Origin: Nitrospirota bacterium
GTDB lineage: Bacteria; Nitrospirota; UBA9217
Direction of reading: 5' to 3'
Assembly (NCBI GenBank): GCA_029858565.1
Contig: JAOUEV010000050.1
Coordinates: 1 to 25,341, forward strand
DNA length: 25,341 nucleotides
The position numbers were made by a program, and so were the translations under genes. Positions within the stretch are counted from its first letter, which is position 1. Every line of letters begins with the position of its first letter. The notes under the pieces are model-generated. The model was not told the DNA's origin, searched no databases, and saw only the letters and a list, made by a program, of their open reading frames with translations. This document shows positions 14,089-18,968 of the stretch, one piece after another.

Positions 14089-15387
14089 TCAATTGACTGT
14101 CGTCTGGTCGAGAAGCACCGCGCGGTAGCCCTCGAGATCCAGATATCCGTTGCCGCTGAGACACGCAACGATGACCCTCTCTTTCTTCTCCTTTTTCGCT
14201 ATATTGGCTTCGTCGATGACCGCCTTTATAGCGTGGCAGGTCTCAGGTGCGGGCAGGATCCCTTCTATGTGAGAAAAAAGGCGGCCCGCCTCGAAGGTGT
14301 CCTTCTGGTCATAGGCGATCGGCTCAATATAACCGAGATGCCGCAGGAGGCTGACGAGCGGAGATCCTCCGTGCTGCCTCAGACCACCGACGTGCATTAC
14401 CGGAGGAATAAAATCGTGACCCAGAGTATACGTTTTATTCAGGGGAGTGAGCTTGCCCGGGTCTCCATGTTCATAACGATATTCTCCTTTAGTGAGCCTC
14501 GGAGCTGCAGTTGATTCGATCGCAAGAAAACGCAGTTGATTTGCCAGCCGCTCCTTGATGAAAGGCATCATAAACCCGCCCAGATTGCTTCCCCCGCCAA
14601 TGCAGGCAATGAGCATATCTGCCCTCTCGCCCGCTGACTCGAGCTGCTTCTTCGTTTCGAGACCGATAATTGTGTTGTGAAGAAGCGTATGGACCGCATT
14701 GCTCCCGTTCAAATAGGTGAATCCTTCATTCTCCATGGCGAACTCGAGCGCATCGCTTATGCCCGAGTTTACGGAGCCTGGGTGGTCAGGAAATTGAGCA
14801 AGCAGCTTGCGTCCGGATTTCGTCAACGGGCTCGGGGACGGAAGGAATTCTGCACCCAAGAGCTCTGCGTGAATTCTGCGAAAAGGCTTATGGTGATAGG
14901 AAACAACGGGGATGAACACTCTGCACTGCAGGCCGTAAAATGAGCTGGCAAGAGCGATCGCCGTACCCCATTGCCCGGCGCCCGTTTGGGTCACCGTTCC
15001 TGTATACCCCTCTTTTTTCACGTAGTATGCCTGCGCGATGCTCGTGTTGGGCTTGAAGCTGCCGCTGCACATCATATCTTCCCTTTTGAAATAGATCCGG
15101 GCAGGCGTTTCGAGATATTTTTCTAGATCTACAGCCCGGTAGAGAGGCGTGGGTCTGCCCGTAATGATGTACTTTTCGAGTACTTCATCTGGGATATCGA
15201 TCCACCGCTCCTCCGTAGCGTCCTGATCTTGAAGGGATTTTGGTGTGATGGCGCGTATTTTCTGGATTCTTGAATCCTCTCCCTCCGGATCCATGCTGGG
15301 TGGTACCTTCTCAGGGAGATCGGCCCTGACGTTGTACCATCTTCTTGGGATATCGAGGGAACTCATCGTTATGTTGCGATTAAGCAT
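14089..15387 (-). CDS. TrpB2-like PLP-dependent enzyme (paralogue B, atypical active site)
   Basis: IPRRWYN, RPTPLYRA, GSFKPNT (PLP Lys), TQTGAGQWG, GGGSN, GILPAPE and LSGNG; GGAGGAG RBS. Confidence 0.92.
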   Translation of the reverse strand: MLNRNITMSSLDIPRRWYNVRADLPEKVPPSMDPEGEDSRIQKIRAITPKSLQDQDATEERWIDIPDEVLEKYIITGRPTPLYRAVDLEKYLETPARIYFKREDMMCSGSFKPNTSIAQAYYVKKEGYTGTVTQTGAGQWGTAIALASSFYGLQCRVFIPVVSYHHKPFRRIHAELLGAEFLPSPSPLTKSGRKLLAQFPDHPGSVNSGISDALEFAMENEGFTYLNGSNAVHTLLHNTIIGLETKKQLESAGERADMLIACIGGGSNLGGFMMPFIKERLANQLRFLAIESTAAPRLTKGEYRYEHGDPGKLTPLNKTYTLGHDFIPPVMHVGGLRQHGGSPLVSLLRHLGYIEPIAYDQKDTFEAGRLFSHIEGILPAPETCHAIKAVIDEANIAKKEKKERVIVACLSGNGYLDLEGYRAVLLDQTTVN

Positions 15388-16582
15388 TTACTCCTCCGAG
15401 AGCATACTTACGTGAGACATGATTTCTCAGTTCCTGCACCTGCTCGAAGAAGTTGTGTATATTTGTGTTGTAGGGAGACTTGAAATATGATGACAGCTGT
15501 GTCAGAATGCCGCCCTCGCCTTGCTGCTGAAAGAAATCGACCCACCGGATGAGATCGAGTACGAGCGGCGCGGCAAGGATCGAATCCTTTCCGAGCCAGT
15601 TGATCTTCATCGACATCTCTTCGTTCAACCATCCGGTAAAGTCGATATTATCCCATGCCTCCTTTGCGTCGCCCCGCGGCTTGTAGTAATTGATATTGAC
15701 CTGGTGGTCGAAATCCGAATAGCCCATGATGTCCGGAAGGACGTTCTTCTTCGACTCAATCTTCGTCGCAAGATTTTCGGCGCAGCTCAGCACTTCGCCG
15801 TCTCTGTTGCCCAGGATATTGACGCTGTACCAGCCCTTTAACTTGAGGGACCTCTCTTTCAGCATGGGTGCAATCACGGTCTTGTACAGTGTCTGTCCCG
15901 TTTTACCGTCCTTCCCTGCAATGGGAAGGTTAAGGCTTACGGCGAGATCCATCAATGCCGGGATGTCGACGGTAACGGAAGGGGTAAAGTTGATATAGGC
16001 CGATCCGGACTTGAGGGCCGCATAGGCGTACAACATCCCGAAGGTGATCGCCGGGCTGTTTTCGTCAAGAGCTTTCTCGAAGGCCGCGAGGGTCTGATAT
16101 TCCGGTTTATCTGTACTGATATGGACCTCCGTAGACGCCAGGTTCACAACGATAATGGAATCGAGTTTATGGCGCTCCTTGAACCTCTTGATGTCGTTAA
16201 TGATCGCCGTTACAGCGTCGCGATGTCCGCTCGTCTTTACGCTGTTTTCGATGAATTTGTCGATTATGTTGCCGGTAACAGTCGCCGCTCCTGGCAGTAC
16301 TACTACGCTTTCCAGCTTGTCTTTCACCGCATCAAGAAGTTTCTCATTCACAACCTTATGCTCCTTGGTAGCCGAATACATGTCTTTCTTGACGATGTCC
16401 CATCCTCCGAACGTGATATCCTGGATATTAACGAAATCGAGATCCTTGTACAGTGGATCGCATTCCGTTGTAAGGTAGTTTTCGTCAATAATTCCCATCT
16501 TTTTTGCAAATACTCCCGTGATGACCGTTGTCGAGATACTGCCTAGAGCACCCACCAGTAATGCACCGATTTTTTTCTTCAT
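15380..16582 (-). CDS. ino1: Inositol-3-phosphate (myo-inositol-1-phosphate) synthase
   Basis: FGGWD, VNLASTE, NFTPS, GKDGKTGQT, NILGNRDG, KEAWD, DSILAAPLVLDL and YFKSP motifs. Confidence 0.92.
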   Translation of the reverse strand: MKKKIGALLVGALGSISTTVITGVFAKKMGIIDENYLTTECDPLYKDLDFVNIQDITFGGWDIVKKDMYSATKEHKVVNEKLLDAVKDKLESVVVLPGAATVTGNIIDKFIENSVKTSGHRDAVTAIINDIKRFKERHKLDSIIVVNLASTEVHISTDKPEYQTLAAFEKALDENSPAITFGMLYAYAALKSGSAYINFTPSVTVDIPALMDLAVSLNLPIAGKDGKTGQTLYKTVIAPMLKERSLKLKGWYSVNILGNRDGEVLSCAENLATKIESKKNVLPDIMGYSDFDHQVNINYYKPRGDAKEAWDNIDFTGWLNEEMSMKINWLGKDSILAAPLVLDLIRWVDFFQQQGEGGILTQLSSYFKSPYNTNIHNFFEQVQELRNHVSRKYALGGVNA

Positions 16583-17665: not shown

Positions 17666-18968
17666 CTTTTTTCTTGTCACTGAGCAATATCTGACGATAT
17701 CCTTCAAGGTCAAAAAAGCCACTTCCACTGAGACAAAATACGATAGTCCGTTCTTTGCCTTCCTCTTTAGCCTCCAGGGCGACTTTGATCGCCGCGCTGA
17801 TGGCATGGCACGATTCCGGCGCCGGAAGAATGCCTTCACAAATCGAAAACAGACGGCCAGCTTCAAAGATATCGGTTTGATCGAAAGCCACAGCGTCAAG
17901 AAGGCCTTCGTGGCGCAACAGCCCGATGATCGGCGAGCCGCTGTGTTGCCTGAGGCCGCCGATATGAATTTCCGGCGGGATGAAGTCTTGTCCGAGAGTG
18001 TACGACTTCGTCAATGGCGTGAGACCGGAGGAATCGCCTGCATCATATCGGTACGTCCCCTTCGTTAGCCGAGGTACGGCTGTTGATTCCGCAGCTAAAA
18101 AGGTTATCGATCCGGGTTTTTTCATTTTTTCTTCGAAAAATGGCAGGAAAAATCCGCCCAAATTACTGCCGCCGCCCACGCACGCTATGAGAATGTCCGG
18201 TTTTTCAGAAATCAGCTTCATCTGTTTCATGGTTTCCAGACCGATCACGGTCTGGTGTAGCAGAACATGAGGCAGATTGCTCCCCGAAACGTAAGCGAAC
18301 TTGCCGTTGTAGTTTGCCGCCGTTTCTACTGCTTCGCTTATGCCGGTACCGATTGACCCCGGGTGACCAGGTCTGTCGTCGAGCATTTTTCTGCCTGCGG
18401 CTGTTTTTGTACTTGGAGACGGATAGACATCTCCACCGTACAGTTTCATGTAGTATCGCCTATATAGTTTTTGTTCATAGGATATGCGGGCCATGAAGAT
18501 CTGAGCCTGCAAGTCATAGAGTTTCGCCGATACGCATACCGCAGTTCCCCATTGGCCTGCTCCCGTTTCAGATATGAGCCCTTCGAATTTTTCTTCCTTC
18601 GCATAGAACGCCTGTGCAATAGAGGTATTCAGCTTGAAGCTGCCGGTGGGCAGAAGATCTTCACGCTTGAAAAATATTTTAGCCGGAGTTTTAAGATATT
18701 TTTCGAGATTGACCGCTCTCTGTAGCAGCGTAGGGCGGCCAATCTTAAGATATTTGTCGAGGACATCTTCAGGTATGGTAATCCACTTATTCGGCGCCGC
18801 ATCCTGTTCCTGTAGGCTGCGAGGGCGTATTTTCTTCATTAGTTCTATCGGGGAAAAATCACCTTTCGGATCTTTGGCCTCAGGTAATGGCTTGGGCAGG
18901 GAGGGAAGAACGTTATACCATTGCCTGGGAATATCCTTTACTGGTAGATGAATTTTTAACTGTTTCAT
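17646..18968 (-). CDS. TrpB2-like PLP-dependent enzyme (paralogue A, atypical active site)
   Basis: IPRQWYN, RPTLLQRA, PTGSFKLNT, SETGAGQWG, GGGSN, GILPAPE and LSGSG; ATG at 18968 (alternative GTG at 18977). Confidence 0.92.
   Translation of the reverse strand: MKQLKIHLPVKDIPRQWYNVLPSLPKPLPEAKDPKGDFSPIELMKKIRPRSLQEQDAAPNKWITIPEDVLDKYLKIGRPTLLQRAVNLEKYLKTPAKIFFKREDLLPTGSFKLNTSIAQAFYAKEEKFEGLISETGAGQWGTAVCVSAKLYDLQAQIFMARISYEQKLYRRYYMKLYGGDVYPSPSTKTAAGRKMLDDRPGHPGSIGTGISEAVETAANYNGKFAYVSGSNLPHVLLHQTVIGLETMKQMKLISEKPDILIACVGGGSNLGGFFLPFFEEKMKKPGSITFLAAESTAVPRLTKGTYRYDAGDSSGLTPLTKSYTLGQDFIPPEIHIGGLRQHSGSPIIGLLRHEGLLDAVAFDQTDIFEAGRLFSICEGILPAPESCHAISAAIKVALEAKEEGKERTIVFCLSGSGFFDLEGYRQILLSDKKKDVYAHA

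What the first reader, a model, noticed from the sequence alone, without database searches (positions are those of the whole stretch)
14089..18968. Both TrpB2 paralogues share a rewired active site, suggesting a new PLP-enzyme subfamily
Changes against the usual TrpB2 motifs (from memory): GSHK->GSFK in both, which is the threonine synthase/dehydratase-type motif (Phe codons at 15055-15057 and 18636-18638); HAGGLRYH->H(V/I)GGLRQH; LGSVLNH->NGSNAVH / SGSNLPH; GSLGIAISE->GSVNSGISD / GSIGTGISE; LSGHG->LSGNG / LSGSG. The PLP Lys and GGGSN loop are intact, and there is no trpA or other trp gene nearby. The hydrophobic-to-polar changes suggest a polar nucleophile (cyclitol, polyphenol or enol) rather than indole, i.e. 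a natural non-canonical amino acid synthase.
Basis: partly seen in the sequence, partly recalled or inferred. Interest (0 to 1): 0.88.

Follow-up and report, generated by a model that had tools for sequence, protein, structure and literature searches.

The report
Rewired TrpB2 pair in biosynthetic operon
Two neighbouring tryptophan-synthase-like genes belong to a separate, uncharacterised branch of the TrpB2 family with a remodelled substrate pocket, and they sit in an imported biosynthetic operon, so they probably join serine to a sugar-derived ring compound rather than to indole.

Summary
Both genes (14089-15387 and 17646-18977, minus strand) pass the TrpB2 models. They keep the PLP lysine, the GGGSN loop and the GGLR arginine, but carry F for H before the lysine, N for V, R for T and Q for Y.

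These changes are not common among ordinary TrpB2. Of 118 nearest database homologues, 47 share the signature and 71 have the ordinary motifs, with perfect covariation. The variants form one clade (support 99; 98 with the signature columns removed).

Copy A also replaces the catalytic Glu by Gln, at a site invariant in all 60 other variant rows and 145 of 146 ordinary rows.

Forty relatives of the host genome have only ordinary TrpB2. The host has its own trpB1/trpA elsewhere.

The pair lies in a low-GC, transposase-flanked operon of about 18 genes: inositol-phosphate synthase, Zn-dehydrogenase, two IolE/AsbF-type TIM barrels, KS/CLF/ACP, AMP-ligase and UbiD. The operon is syntenic in a second contig, and Geotalea uraniireducens Rf4 has the same pair.

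In 14 of 16 variant loci the gene lies beside a ring-forming enzyme or a phenol hydroxylase.

Best reading: beta-substitution of (phospho)serine with a hydroxylated carbocyclic or aromatic nucleophile. The chemistry is untested.

The parts
17646..18977 (-). TrpB2 paralogue B (P0002). It has the variant-clade signature F114/N/R/Q and keeps the catalytic Glu. The likely start is the ATG at 18968.
   Evidence: NF009057 592 bits against a cut-off of 366; motifs; clade membership
16631..17641 (-). Zn-dependent alcohol dehydrogenase, nearest to IolM (scyllo-inosose 3-dehydrogenase) but below its cut-off. The longer TTG frame running up to 17899 overlaps trpB2-B and is probably spurious.
   Evidence: Pfam ADH_N and ADH_zinc_N; NCBIfam IolM 165.7 bits against 450
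15380..16582 (-). myo-Inositol-phosphate synthase (P0003). Its last 8 bases overlap the start of trpB2-A.
   Evidence: Pfam PF07994 and PF01658; PDB inositol-3-phosphate synthases 7nwr 274 bits and 1u1i 231 bits, against 56 bits for the five-membered cyclitol-phosphate synthase
14089..15387 (-). TrpB2 paralogue A (P0001). It has the variant-clade signature plus E134Q, G207N, L206V, V234T, Q238N and L173H.
   Evidence: NF009057 585 bits
13156..13887 (-). NAD(P)-binding protein of 243 aa, like the N-terminal part of 6PGDH or ProC
   Evidence: Weak Pfam matches to PF03446, PF02826 and PF03807; conserved in L096 at 39% identity
11919..13163 (-). FabF-like ketosynthase
   Evidence: Pfam ketoacyl-synt N and C domains; FabF 352 bits and AmcF 221 bits, both below cut-off
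10747..11997 (-). Divergent KS-like partner (CLF/CYF-like)
   Evidence: Weak Pfam ketoacyl-synt matches
10470..10832 (-). Acyl carrier protein
   Evidence: Pfam PP-binding
9650..10489 (-). Xylose-isomerase-like TIM barrel 1, of the IolO/IolE/AsbF type of fold family
   Evidence: Pfam PF01261; weak NCBIfam matches to IolO and IolE; PDB MJ1311, TM0416 and IolE
8166..9704 (-). AMP-dependent ligase
   Evidence: Pfam AMP-binding and AMP-binding_C
7801..8154 (-). Carboxymuconolactone-decarboxylase-family protein
   Evidence: Pfam CMD
6978..7808 (-). Xylose-isomerase-like TIM barrel 2
   Evidence: Pfam PF01261
6295..6981 (-). FMN-reductase-like flavoprotein
   Evidence: Pfam FMN_red
4881..6347 (-). 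UbiD-family (de)carboxylase
   Evidence: Pfam UbiD N, core and C domains; PDB UbiD and phenolic acid decarboxylase
3764..4909 (-). DUF362 protein with a 4Fe-4S ferredoxin domain
   Evidence: Pfam
3456..3845 (-). Small muconolactone-isomerase-like protein (weak match)
   Evidence: Pfam MIase 23.8 bits, below cut-off
2241..3455 (-). MFS transporter
   Evidence: Pfam MFS_1
19008..19436 (-). MarR-family regulator at the head of the operon
   Evidence: Pfam MarR; conserved in L096
1510..2235 (+). DUF169 protein. In L096 it lies between MarR and trpB2-B.
   Evidence: Pfam
60..1352 (-). Mutator-family transposase at the left edge of the island
   Evidence: Pfam PF00872
19839..21146 (-). HsdM-type N6 DNA methylase in the low-GC stretch at the right edge of the island
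   Evidence: Pfam N6_Mtase and HsdM_N; GC 0.451 over 19437-21300

Best explanation
The two genes encode members of a distinct, uncharacterised branch of the TrpB2 family, called here the F-N-R-Q clade. Both keep everything needed to bind PLP and to make the aminoacrylate from serine or O-phosphoserine. These are the Schiff-base Lys, the GGGSN phosphate loop, the TGAGQW carboxylate loop, the Ser of LSG and the Arg of GGLR. The residues that in tryptophan synthases surround the incoming nucleophile are replaced by polar or charged ones. The pair works inside a horizontally acquired biosynthetic operon, not in tryptophan synthesis. The proposed route is as follows. Inositol-phosphate synthase makes a cyclitol. 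The IolM-like Zn-dehydrogenase oxidises it to a keto-cyclitol. The two IolE/AsbF-type TIM barrels dehydrate or isomerise it towards an enol or polyhydroxybenzene. The TrpB2 enzymes then attack the PLP-aminoacrylate with this electron-rich carbocycle, a Friedel-Crafts or enolate-type C-alkylation as in engineered tyrosine synthases. The product would be a non-proteinogenic amino acid, further built on by the AMP-ligase, ACP, KS-CLF and UbiD enzymes and exported by the MFS pump. Copy A has lost the catalytic Glu and changed five more otherwise invariant residues. It occurs together with a B-type copy wherever its contig could be examined. It therefore probably carries out a second, different alkylation or works as the specialised partner of copy B. 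Shown: clade identity, signature, operon conservation, horizontal origin and neighbourhood pattern. Inferred: every chemical step and the nature of the nucleophile.
For: Family and retained catalytic core: NF009057 585 and 592 bits against a cut-off of 366, and TIGR01415 above cut-off. Full-length match to solved TrpB2 structures, E 4e-128. Motifs.

Signature: 50 F-type and 71 H-type rows with perfect covariation of F111, N230 and R297, and of Q338 in 49 of 50.

Monophyly: 66 tips with support 99 in FastTree, 239 rows, rooted on the host's own TrpB1. With 23 signature columns removed, 33 variant rows form one side of a branch at SH-aLRT 98 in IQ-TREE, 74 rows.

Not housekeeping: the host has TrpB1 and TrpA on contig C41 and an ordinary SHKPNT TrpB2 fragment on C143. 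None of 40 relatives gave a match above 51% identity, and the nine best of them that were read are SHKPNT/GGLRYH. The cluster GC of 0.496 compares with a genome GC of 0.570 and lies in the lowest 3.4% of 379 windows; a transposase sits at the edge.

Operon conservation: 16 of the window's genes lie in the same order in L096, plus DUF169 at a different place, at 24-74% identity. The same A/B pair lies three accession numbers apart in Geotalea uraniireducens Rf4 and two apart in a Desulfobacter MAG. A and B topologies are congruent for 4 pairs.

Neighbourhood theme: a DHQS-like gene lies directly downstream in 6 of 14 variant genome loci against 0 of 65 ordinary loci. An HpaB-type phenol hydroxylase lies within 10 kb in 6 further variant loci and in no ordinary locus. 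MIPS is present in the window and in L096. Five of the six DHQS-type loci (all but L011) and the Massilia locus L023 also carry a PLP decarboxylase; that of L008 passes the MfnA tyrosine-decarboxylase model.

Analogy: engineered tyrosine synthases derived from TrpB carry E105G at the catalytic Glu (passages of PMC13174591). The CC-1065 benzodipyrrole is proposed to arise from a DOPA-derived indole plus serine followed by decarboxylation (passages of the review PMC9570651).
Against: No activity, substrate or product is known for any member. The placing of the changed residues in the nucleophile pocket rests on alignment to TrpB numbering that I recall, not on coordinates.

MIPS adjacency is not exclusive to the variants: 5 of 65 ordinary TrpB2 loci have a MIPS-like gene within 10 kb, and three archaeal ones within about 0.5-0.8 kb.

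Two of the 16 variant loci show no ring-forming or ring-hydroxylating neighbour: L006 and L052.

No inositol-phosphate phosphatase was recognised in the operon. The window's operon also has no PLP decarboxylase, unlike the DHQS/HpaB-type clusters.

The polar pocket would suit an O- or N-nucleophile equally well. Neighbouring loci are partly related organisms (three Kitasatospora, five or six Streptomyces), so the counts overstate independence.
Confidence: 0.55

Rival explanations
1. The enzymes do beta-substitution with a heteroatom nucleophile: a hydroxyl or amino group of the cyclitol, or a thiol. The product would be an ether-, amine- or thioether-linked amino acid, as the CysK, CysM and SbnA enzymes do with O-acetyl- or O-phosphoserine.
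For: The pocket becomes polar, with N, Q, S/T and a new invariant Arg. That would suit a polyol or an anionic sugar derivative such as inositol phosphate made by the adjacent MIPS. The OPS-type Arg of GGLR is kept. Loss of the catalytic Glu in copy A matters less for strong heteroatom nucleophiles; this last point is from my recall of StTrpB E109 mutant work.
Against: The two TIM barrels and the Zn-dehydrogenase conserved with the enzyme suggest that the ring is oxidised and dehydrated rather than used as a polyol. The HpaB-type and MfnA-type neighbours in sister clusters point to aromatic amino acids. No aminotransferase lies in the operon to make an aminocyclitol.
Confidence: 0.2
2. They are still tryptophan or indole-analogue synthases. 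They would provide or salvage Trp, or a hydroxy- or substituted Trp, for the cluster's product. The motif changes would only tune specificity towards substituted indoles.
For: They score above the TrpB2 equivalog cut-offs. Copy B keeps the catalytic Glu. The nearest documented chemistry for sister clusters, the CC-1065 scheme in the review PMC9570651, uses an indole-type ring, although it is attacked on its phenolic part.
Against: No indole-forming or other trp gene lies in the window. The host has separate trpB1, trpA and ordinary trpB2 genes. Five or more positions that are invariant in 71 ordinary TrpB2 rows are replaced in all variants. Copy A lacks the Glu that activates indole. The clade is absent from 40 relatives.
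Confidence: 0.07
3. The enzymes have switched reaction type. They would act as beta-eliminating dehydratases or deaminases, or as racemases or epimerases, on serine, threonine or a cluster intermediate. The H-to-F change gives the S-F-K motif of threonine dehydratases and synthases.
For: The SFK motif is present. Partial matches to threonine dehydratase and synthase models cover residues about 78-185 at E 1e-7 to 1e-11. TrpB without its Glu or without a nucleophile is known to deaminate serine (recall).
Against: Those matches are 20-43 bits against cut-offs of 266 or more. I did not test whether ordinary TrpB2 give the same matches. The whole TrpB2 architecture, including the COMM region and the GGLR Arg, is conserved over the full length. 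A pocket under strong, clade-wide constraint, with invariant N230, R297 and Q338, argues for binding of a second substrate.
Confidence: 0.1
4. Copy A is not an independent catalyst. It would be a regulatory or structural partner forming a heterodimer with copy B, comparable to the TrpB-like pseudoenzyme of eudicot plants.
For: Copy A has lost the catalytic Glu and five other otherwise invariant residues. A and B trees are congruent. A plant TrpB-like pseudoenzyme is in print (title and abstract of PMC12727527 seen in the listing).
Against: Copy A keeps the PLP Lys, the GGGSN loop, the carboxylate loop and the Ser of LSG. Its own changes are invariant in its five known members, as expected for a working site. 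No interaction was tested.
Confidence: 0.15

Closest known systems
Archaeal and bacterial TrpB2 (stand-alone or TrpA-associated tryptophan synthase beta-2; solved as PDB 6hul_B, 4qys_B, 6hte_B)
   Same: Full-length homology (E 4e-128 to 5e-112). Both proteins pass the NCBIfam TrpB2 equivalog. Same PLP Lys, GGGSN, TGAGQW and GGLR Arg. The Arg is, by my recall of Busch et al. 2014, the reason TrpB2 prefer O-phosphoserine.
   Different: H to F before the Lys, V to N, T to R, Y to Q, P to S and about ten further clade-specific changes. Copy A also has E to Q at the catalytic Glu. The variants form a separate clade. Their genomic setting is secondary-metabolite operons rather than trp genes or isolated loci.
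Engineered tyrosine synthases (TyrS) evolved from Thermotoga TrpB (PDB 8egy family; passages of PMC13174591)
   Same: The proposed reaction type is the same: PLP-aminoacrylate from serine alkylating a phenolic ring carbon. The engineered enzymes lost the catalytic Glu (E105G), as copy A did (E to Q).
   Different: TyrS is a laboratory product of TrpB1 origin that scores 109 bits against P0001. The window's proteins are natural TrpB2-type enzymes, their substrate is unknown, and copy B keeps the Glu.
The serine-adding step of CC-1065/yatakemycin benzodipyrrole biosynthesis (Wu et al. 2017, as summarised in the review PMC9570651)
   Same: The scheme combines a hydroxylated aromatic ring with serine, then decarboxylates and cyclises. 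Sister clusters of the variant clade hold exactly such a gene set: HpaB hydroxylase or DHQS-like enzyme, variant TrpB2, MfnA-like decarboxylase, methyltransferase, HemN-like radical SAM and GyrI-like proteins.
   Different: I could not see which protein does this step in the c10 or ytk clusters. The primary paper is not held, and no open paper links CC-1065 with tryptophan synthase. The window's own operon has MIPS, KS/CLF and UbiD instead, with no decarboxylase or radical SAM enzyme.
OPS/OAS-dependent beta-replacement enzymes of the cysteine-synthase family (CysK, CysM, SbnA; recalled)
   Same: Fold-type II PLP enzymes that add a polar nucleophile to an aminoacrylate to make non-proteinogenic amino acids.
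   Different: Only 25-26 bits against the cysK and cysKM models, whose cut-offs are 344-351. They belong to a different subfamily and use heteroatom nucleophiles.
Type II PKS-like AmcB/F/G/H set of cispentacin and 'minimal type' clusters (PMC10698177)
   Same: The operon's AMP-ligase, ACP, KS and KS-like partner match the four-gene 'minimal type' composition described there (passages read).
   Different: The window's KS scores 221 bits against a cut-off of 325 for AmcF and scores better against FabF. No AmcE, AmcC or AmcD equivalents were found. This concerns the neighbours, not the TrpB2 genes.

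Membership tests
TrpB2 (NCBIfam NF009057 / TIGR01415, TrpB-like PLP-dependent enzyme) | Whole-protein score above the curated cut-offs | tested here: met
   P0001 scores 585.2 and 548.0 bits, P0002 592.2 and 560.0 bits, against cut-offs of 366 and 518.85
TrpB2 (NCBIfam NF009057 / TIGR01415, TrpB-like PLP-dependent enzyme) | PLP Schiff-base Lys, GGGSN phosphate loop, TGAGQW loop, Ser of (L/F)SG | tested here: met
   Present in both proteins
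TrpB2 (NCBIfam NF009057 / TIGR01415, TrpB-like PLP-dependent enzyme) | Arg in GGLR in place of TrpB1's Asp (its role in O-phosphoserine binding is recalled) | tested here: met
   GGLR is present in both proteins and in all 121 rows
TrpB2 (NCBIfam NF009057 / TIGR01415, TrpB-like PLP-dependent enzyme) | His before the PLP Lys (GSHK), Val in GSV, and Tyr in GGLRYH, invariant in ordinary members | tested here: not met
   F, N and Q in both proteins; H, V and Y in 71 of 71 ordinary rows
TrpB2 (NCBIfam NF009057 / TIGR01415, TrpB-like PLP-dependent enzyme) | Catalytic Glu of ETGAGQW | tested here: inconclusive
   Met in P0002 (E137) and not met in P0001 (Q134). E is found in 145 of 146 ordinary rows and in 60 of 60 other variant rows.
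TrpB2 (NCBIfam NF009057 / TIGR01415, TrpB-like PLP-dependent enzyme) | Makes tryptophan from indole plus Ser or OPS | not testable with these tools
   Needs an enzyme assay or trpB complementation
Canonical tryptophan synthase beta (TrpB1, TIGR00263) | Score above cut-off and pairing with trpA | tested here: not met
   139.0 and 140.7 bits against 392.45. No trpA lies in the window. The host's trpA and trpB1 are on contig C41.
Threonine synthase / serine-threonine dehydratase families | Score above the family cut-offs | tested here: not met
   Best scores are 43.4 bits (PRK06381, cut-off 266) and 41.3 bits (PRK06815, cut-off 371), covering only about 90-100 residues. The shared S-F-K motif is seen in the sequence; that it is typical of those families is recalled.
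F-N-R-Q clade of TrpB2 (defined in this report) | F111, N230, R297, Q338 (P0001 numbering) and placement inside the clade | tested here: met
   Both proteins carry all four residues. The clade has support 99, and 98 with the signature columns removed.
Serine-adding enzyme of CC-1065/yatakemycin-type pathways | Orthology to the c10 or ytk protein that joins serine to the hydroxyindole | not tested
   No sequence of those clusters was on hand. Only the review's scheme was read.

The most novel reading that the evidence does not exclude
The F-N-R-Q clade are natural aryl-alanine synthases, the natural counterpart of the engineered tyrosine synthases. In the window's operon, the two paralogues together with MIPS, the Zn-dehydrogenase and the TIM-barrel dehydratases would build a polyhydroxylated aromatic amino acid de novo from glucose-6-phosphate and (phospho)serine. 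That would be a shikimate-independent route to an aromatic amino acid. The Glu-less copy A would perform a second ring alkylation or a regiochemically different one.
Probability: 0.3. Interest if true: 0.85.

Novelty: new variant of a known kind. Interest (0 to 1): 0.68.

Why it matters
TrpB is one of the most heavily engineered enzymes for making non-canonical amino acids, and phenol alkylation was reached only by directed evolution. A natural, compact and widely scattered TrpB2 clade has a conserved polar pocket. It is found in Desulfobacter, Geotalea, Clostridia, Bacteroidales, Massilia, Streptomyces and Kitasatospora. Its genetic links to ring-forming enzymes would give ready-made catalysts and new pocket solutions. 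It would also fix an annotation error, since these proteins are named tryptophan synthase or TrpB-like in the databases. It would identify the likely serine-adding enzyme type in several orphan gene clusters. These include clusters in gut-associated Clostridia that resemble those for DNA-alkylating cyclopropyl-pyrroloindoles. The operon is also present in a cultured strain, Geotalea uraniireducens Rf4, so the idea can be tested directly.

Tried and rejected
Literature: all ten full-text searches found no paper that describes a GSFK/GGLRQH TrpB2 clade, or a TrpB-like gene beside MIPS or DHQS-like genes. The primary CC-1065 paper is not held. Two papers searched for 'tryptophan' and related words gave nothing relevant. 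Subscription journals and supplements were not visible, so the c10 and ytk gene tables may already list such a protein.

Rfam: no match in the window, so no T-box or trp leader was found.

ESM Atlas: only generic TrpB clusters, no new lead.

50%-identity library: the clade collapses to two full-length representatives (P0121, P0124) and two fragments (P0175, P0243) among the best 150. This search therefore could not size the clade. It did show other divergent TrpB2-like representatives with F or Y before the Lys.

Sequencing runs: no RNA holder listed.

Metagenome scan: only one locus (L096).

Not attempted: a heterodimer prediction for A+B, because solved TrpB2 homodimers would make a pass uninformative; structure prediction, because no coordinates are returned for measuring distances to the active site; and counting the clade across a whole phylum, because identity alone does not separate variant from ordinary.

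Rejected idea: that the operon is catabolic (UbiD, CMD, MIase-like, CoA-ligase flavour). MIPS, ACP and KS are anabolic, so I rejected it.

Rejected idea: that the MIPS-like gene is an Ari2-type five-membered cyclitol synthase. It scores 56 bits against that enzyme and 231-274 bits against true MIPS.

Full report
**What is there.** The window is the whole of contig C129 of a 3.9-Mb genome in 144 contigs. Between 19436 and 2241 all genes lie on the minus strand, with small gaps or overlaps. In order they are:
- a MarR regulator
- trpB2-B (P0002, 17646-18977)
- a Zn-dehydrogenase
- an inositol-phosphate synthase (P0003)
- trpB2-A (P0001, 14089-15387)
- a small NAD-binding protein
- a FabF-like ketosynthase, a divergent KS-like partner and an ACP
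- a xylose-isomerase-like TIM barrel
- an AMP-ligase
- a CMD-family protein
- a second TIM barrel
- an FMN-reductase-like protein
- a UbiD-family decarboxylase
- a DUF362/ferredoxin protein
- a small MIase-like protein
- an MFS transporter

A DUF169 gene and a Mutator transposase lie at the left end. An HsdM methylase in a low-GC stretch lies at the right end, followed by GC-rich glycoside hydrolase and glycosyltransferase genes. No trp gene and no Rfam element is present.

**Check of the observation.** The two Phe codons are at the stated coordinates. The two proteins are 56% identical. Both pass the curated TrpB2 models and fail the TrpB1 model. Their best solved relatives are the three TrpB2 structures, which show GSHK, GSLGIA, GSV, GGLRYHG and SGHG where the window has GSFK, GS(V/I)(N/G)(S/T)G, GSN, GGLRQH and SG(N/S)G.

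**Are the motifs common?** They are not. I aligned 121 rows: the best 119 database hits of P0001 (one of them, P0008, is the window's own copy B), plus P0001 and P0002. Of these, 50 rows have F before the Lys and 71 have H. That is 47 and 71 without the three window rows. F111 goes with N230, R297, S292 and Q338 (one N). H111 goes with V, T/S, P and Y, with no mixed forms. The LSGHG change is only a tendency: 10 of 50 variants keep H.

A FastTree of 239 rows rooted on the host's own TrpB1 puts all variants in one clade of 66 tips with support 99. This clade includes a Streptomyces sub-branch with G230/N338 and one Clostridium sequence with V230. To avoid circularity I removed 23 signature columns and rebuilt a 74-row IQ-TREE. 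The 33 variant rows I had selected again form one side of a branch, with SH-aLRT 98. In a library clustered at 50% identity the clade collapses to two full-length representatives, so it is compact. The same search shows other divergent TrpB2-like lineages with F or Y before the Lys.

**Two levels of rewiring.** Copy A and its four database relatives (P0005, P0006, P0007, P0011) form a sub-clade with support 96 (six tips with L096's copy). They share E134Q at the catalytic Glu, G207N, L206V, V234T, Q238N and L173H. At these positions 60 other variants and 146 ordinary rows are almost invariant.

Three of these four relatives sit on a contig that also holds a B-type copy, judged by equal contig lengths and by accession numbers two or three apart. 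Examples are Geotalea uraniireducens Rf4 ABQ26707.1/ABQ26710.1 and a Desulfobacter MAG MEH0020198.1/MEH0020200.1. For P0011 the contig could not be examined. The A and B sub-trees have the same branching order for four pairs.

**Not housekeeping, and imported.** The host genome has TrpB1 and TrpA on contig C41 and a fragment of an ordinary SHKPNT TrpB2 at the end of C143. In 40 relatives (3 of the same genus, 21 of the same family, 16 of the same phylum) the best matches are 47-51% identical. Nine were read, and all nine are SHKPNT/GGLRYH; none gave a closer match. The operon's GC is 0.496 against 0.570 for the genome, in the lowest 3.4% of 379 windows of 18 kb, and 0.617 for the right flank.

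**Conservation of the operon.** A metagenome contig (L096, 78.8 kb) holds 16 of the window's genes in the same order, from MarR and trpB2-B (68%) to DUF362 (65%), with CMD beyond it. DUF169 sits between MarR and trpB2-B there. The two TrpB2 genes, MIPS and DUF362 are the best conserved, at 65-74%. Proteins within the 90% clusters of L096's two TrpB2 belong to the cultured strain Geotalea uraniireducens Rf4.

**Neighbourhood theme across the clade.** The scan of species-representative genomes kept 80 loci: 14 variant, 65 ordinary and one partial.
- In six variant loci a DHQS-like gene follows trpB2 directly. These are three Kitasatospora, Streptomyces olivaceoviridis, a Lachnospiraceae MAG and Clostridium sp. 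KNHs205. The DHQS-like gene is nearest aroB but below its cut-off. Methyltransferase and radical SAM genes accompany it in all six. A TIM barrel and an MfnA-type PLP decarboxylase are present in five, all but L011. An IolM-like Zn-dehydrogenase is found in the four actinomycete loci. Carbon-nitrogen hydrolases are found in the two clostridial loci. GyrI-like genes are found in the four actinomycete loci and L011.
- In six others an HpaB-family phenol hydroxylase lies within 10 kb, with a BtrH_N/DUF4872 protein and a molybdopterin oxidoreductase. These are Massilia and five Streptomyces. Massilia also has a PLP decarboxylase.
- The window and L096 have MIPS.
- Two loci, a Bacteroidales MAG and S. 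fenghuangensis, show none of these.
- None of the 65 ordinary loci has the DHQS-like or HpaB gene by the same tblastn test. Five have a MIPS-like gene within 10 kb, including three archaeal loci within about 0.5-0.8 kb.

Related organisms are counted separately here, so the independent number is smaller, roughly five lineages.

**Mechanism proposed.** What is kept is the Lys, GGGSN, the carboxylate loop, the Ser of LSG and the Arg of GGLR. This argues that both proteins still form the PLP-aminoacrylate from serine or, as in TrpB2 (recalled from Busch et al. 2014), from O-phosphoserine.

What is changed maps, by alignment to Salmonella TrpB numbering that I recall, onto His86, the Leu166-Cys170 stretch, the Thr190/Ala191 stretch and Phe306. 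For copy A it also maps onto Glu109. That is the wall of the indole site. I could not verify this with coordinates.

The partners conserved with the enzyme make or hydroxylate six-membered rings. Their products, keto-cyclitols, enols or polyhydroxybenzenes, are electron-rich carbon nucleophiles. I therefore propose C-alkylation of such a ring by the aminoacrylate. In the window the ring would come from glucose-6-phosphate through MIPS (a true MIPS), the IolM-like dehydrogenase and the two TIM barrels, whose fold family includes inosose dehydratase and dehydroshikimate dehydratase.

Two published precedents give the reaction plausibility. Engineered tyrosine synthases from TrpB carry E105G at the catalytic Glu (passages of PMC13174591). 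The CC-1065 benzodipyrrole is proposed to arise from a DOPA-derived ring plus serine followed by decarboxylation (passages of the review PMC9570651). The role of the AMP-ligase, ACP, KS-CLF set (composition like the 'minimal type' of PMC10698177) and of UbiD is open.

**Rivals.** A heteroatom nucleophile fits the polar pocket equally well. Continued use of indoles is made unlikely by the host's own trp genes and by the invariant pocket changes. A switch to elimination chemistry is suggested only by the SFK motif. Copy A could be a non-catalytic partner, but its PLP residues are intact.

**Verdict.** The nucleophile claim is a reasonable but untested inference. No description of the clade was found in ten literature searches. 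Subscription papers and supplements, in particular the c10 and ytk cluster tables, could not be seen.

Noticed in passing
L007:9622-21260 and L011:9248-21275: A Lachnospiraceae MAG and Clostridium sp. KNHs205 carry clusters with a variant TrpB2, a DHQS-like gene, HemN-like radical SAM enzymes, a methyltransferase and carbon-nitrogen hydrolases. L007 adds a PaaK-like ligase, a TIM barrel and an MfnA-like decarboxylase; L011 adds a GyrI-like protein. The radical SAM, methyltransferase and GyrI-like set recalls the cyclopropane-forming and self-resistance genes described for CC-1065 and yatakemycin (papers read in passages). No orthology was tested.
   Followed up: partly
L015:10001-13200, L017:2345-5600, L018:3867-6900: In three archaeal MAG loci (labelled Euryarchaeota, Methanobacteriota and Methanomicrobia) an ordinary GSHK/GGLRYH TrpB2 lies about 0.5-0.8 kb from a MIPS-like gene that is 37-41% identical to the window's. 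A TrpB2-MIPS link may therefore predate the variant clade, or it may be coincidence.
   Followed up: no
L023:4310-21272; L012, L022, L028, L041, L051: Massilia sp. and five Streptomyces share a module of variant TrpB2, a BtrH_N/DUF4872 protein, a molybdopterin oxidoreductase and an HpaB-family hydroxylase. The Streptomyces copies have G at 230 and N at 338; the Massilia copy has N and Q. Massilia adds a methyltransferase-AMP-ligase fusion, a PLP decarboxylase, a fatty-acid-hydroxylase-like protein and a SAM synthetase.
   Followed up: partly
L008:7691-18885 (also L010, L013, L033): Kitasatospora and Streptomyces olivaceoviridis clusters hold, in order, an AraC/GyrI-like regulator, a GyrI-like protein, variant TrpB2, DHQS-like enzyme, methyltransferase, TIM barrel, TatD/amidohydrolase-like protein, MfnA-type decarboxylase, B12-radical SAM enzyme and Zn-dehydrogenase. 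From memory, the DHQS-like, TIM barrel and TatD-like trio resembles the 'ebo' cluster genes eboD, eboE and eboB.
   Followed up: no
window 60-1352 and 19437-21300: The island is bounded by a Mutator-family transposase and by an HsdM methylase gene lying in the lowest-GC stretch (0.451). No hsdR or hsdS partner was seen in the window, so the methylase may be a remnant.
   Followed up: no
window 16631-17899: The longest frame of the Zn-dehydrogenase starts at a TTG inside trpB2-B (17899). Its first 86 residues or so look like out-of-frame read-through. The Pfam domains begin after the Met at 17641, which leaves a 4-base gap to trpB2-B.
   Followed up: partly
G000:C143:2-451: The host's ordinary TrpB2 (SHKPNT type) is cut by a contig end, so only its first 151 residues are assembled.
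   Followed up: partly
proteins P0128, P0130, P0139, P0142, P0149, P0153, P0155, P0157, P0163, P0164: The 50%-identity library holds further divergent TrpB2-like representatives with F or Y before the PLP Lys and other pocket residues. Several lack the catalytic Glu (A, G, V, Q, D, C or Y at that site). TrpB2 may therefore have several unexplored functional offshoots.
   Followed up: no
L006:171-11447: In a Bacteroidales MAG of 30% GC the variant TrpB2 sits between TPR proteins and a metallophosphoesterase, a methyltransferase, a radical SAM/SPASM enzyme and two PMT_2 glycosyltransferases. This context has no ring-forming enzyme.
   Followed up: no
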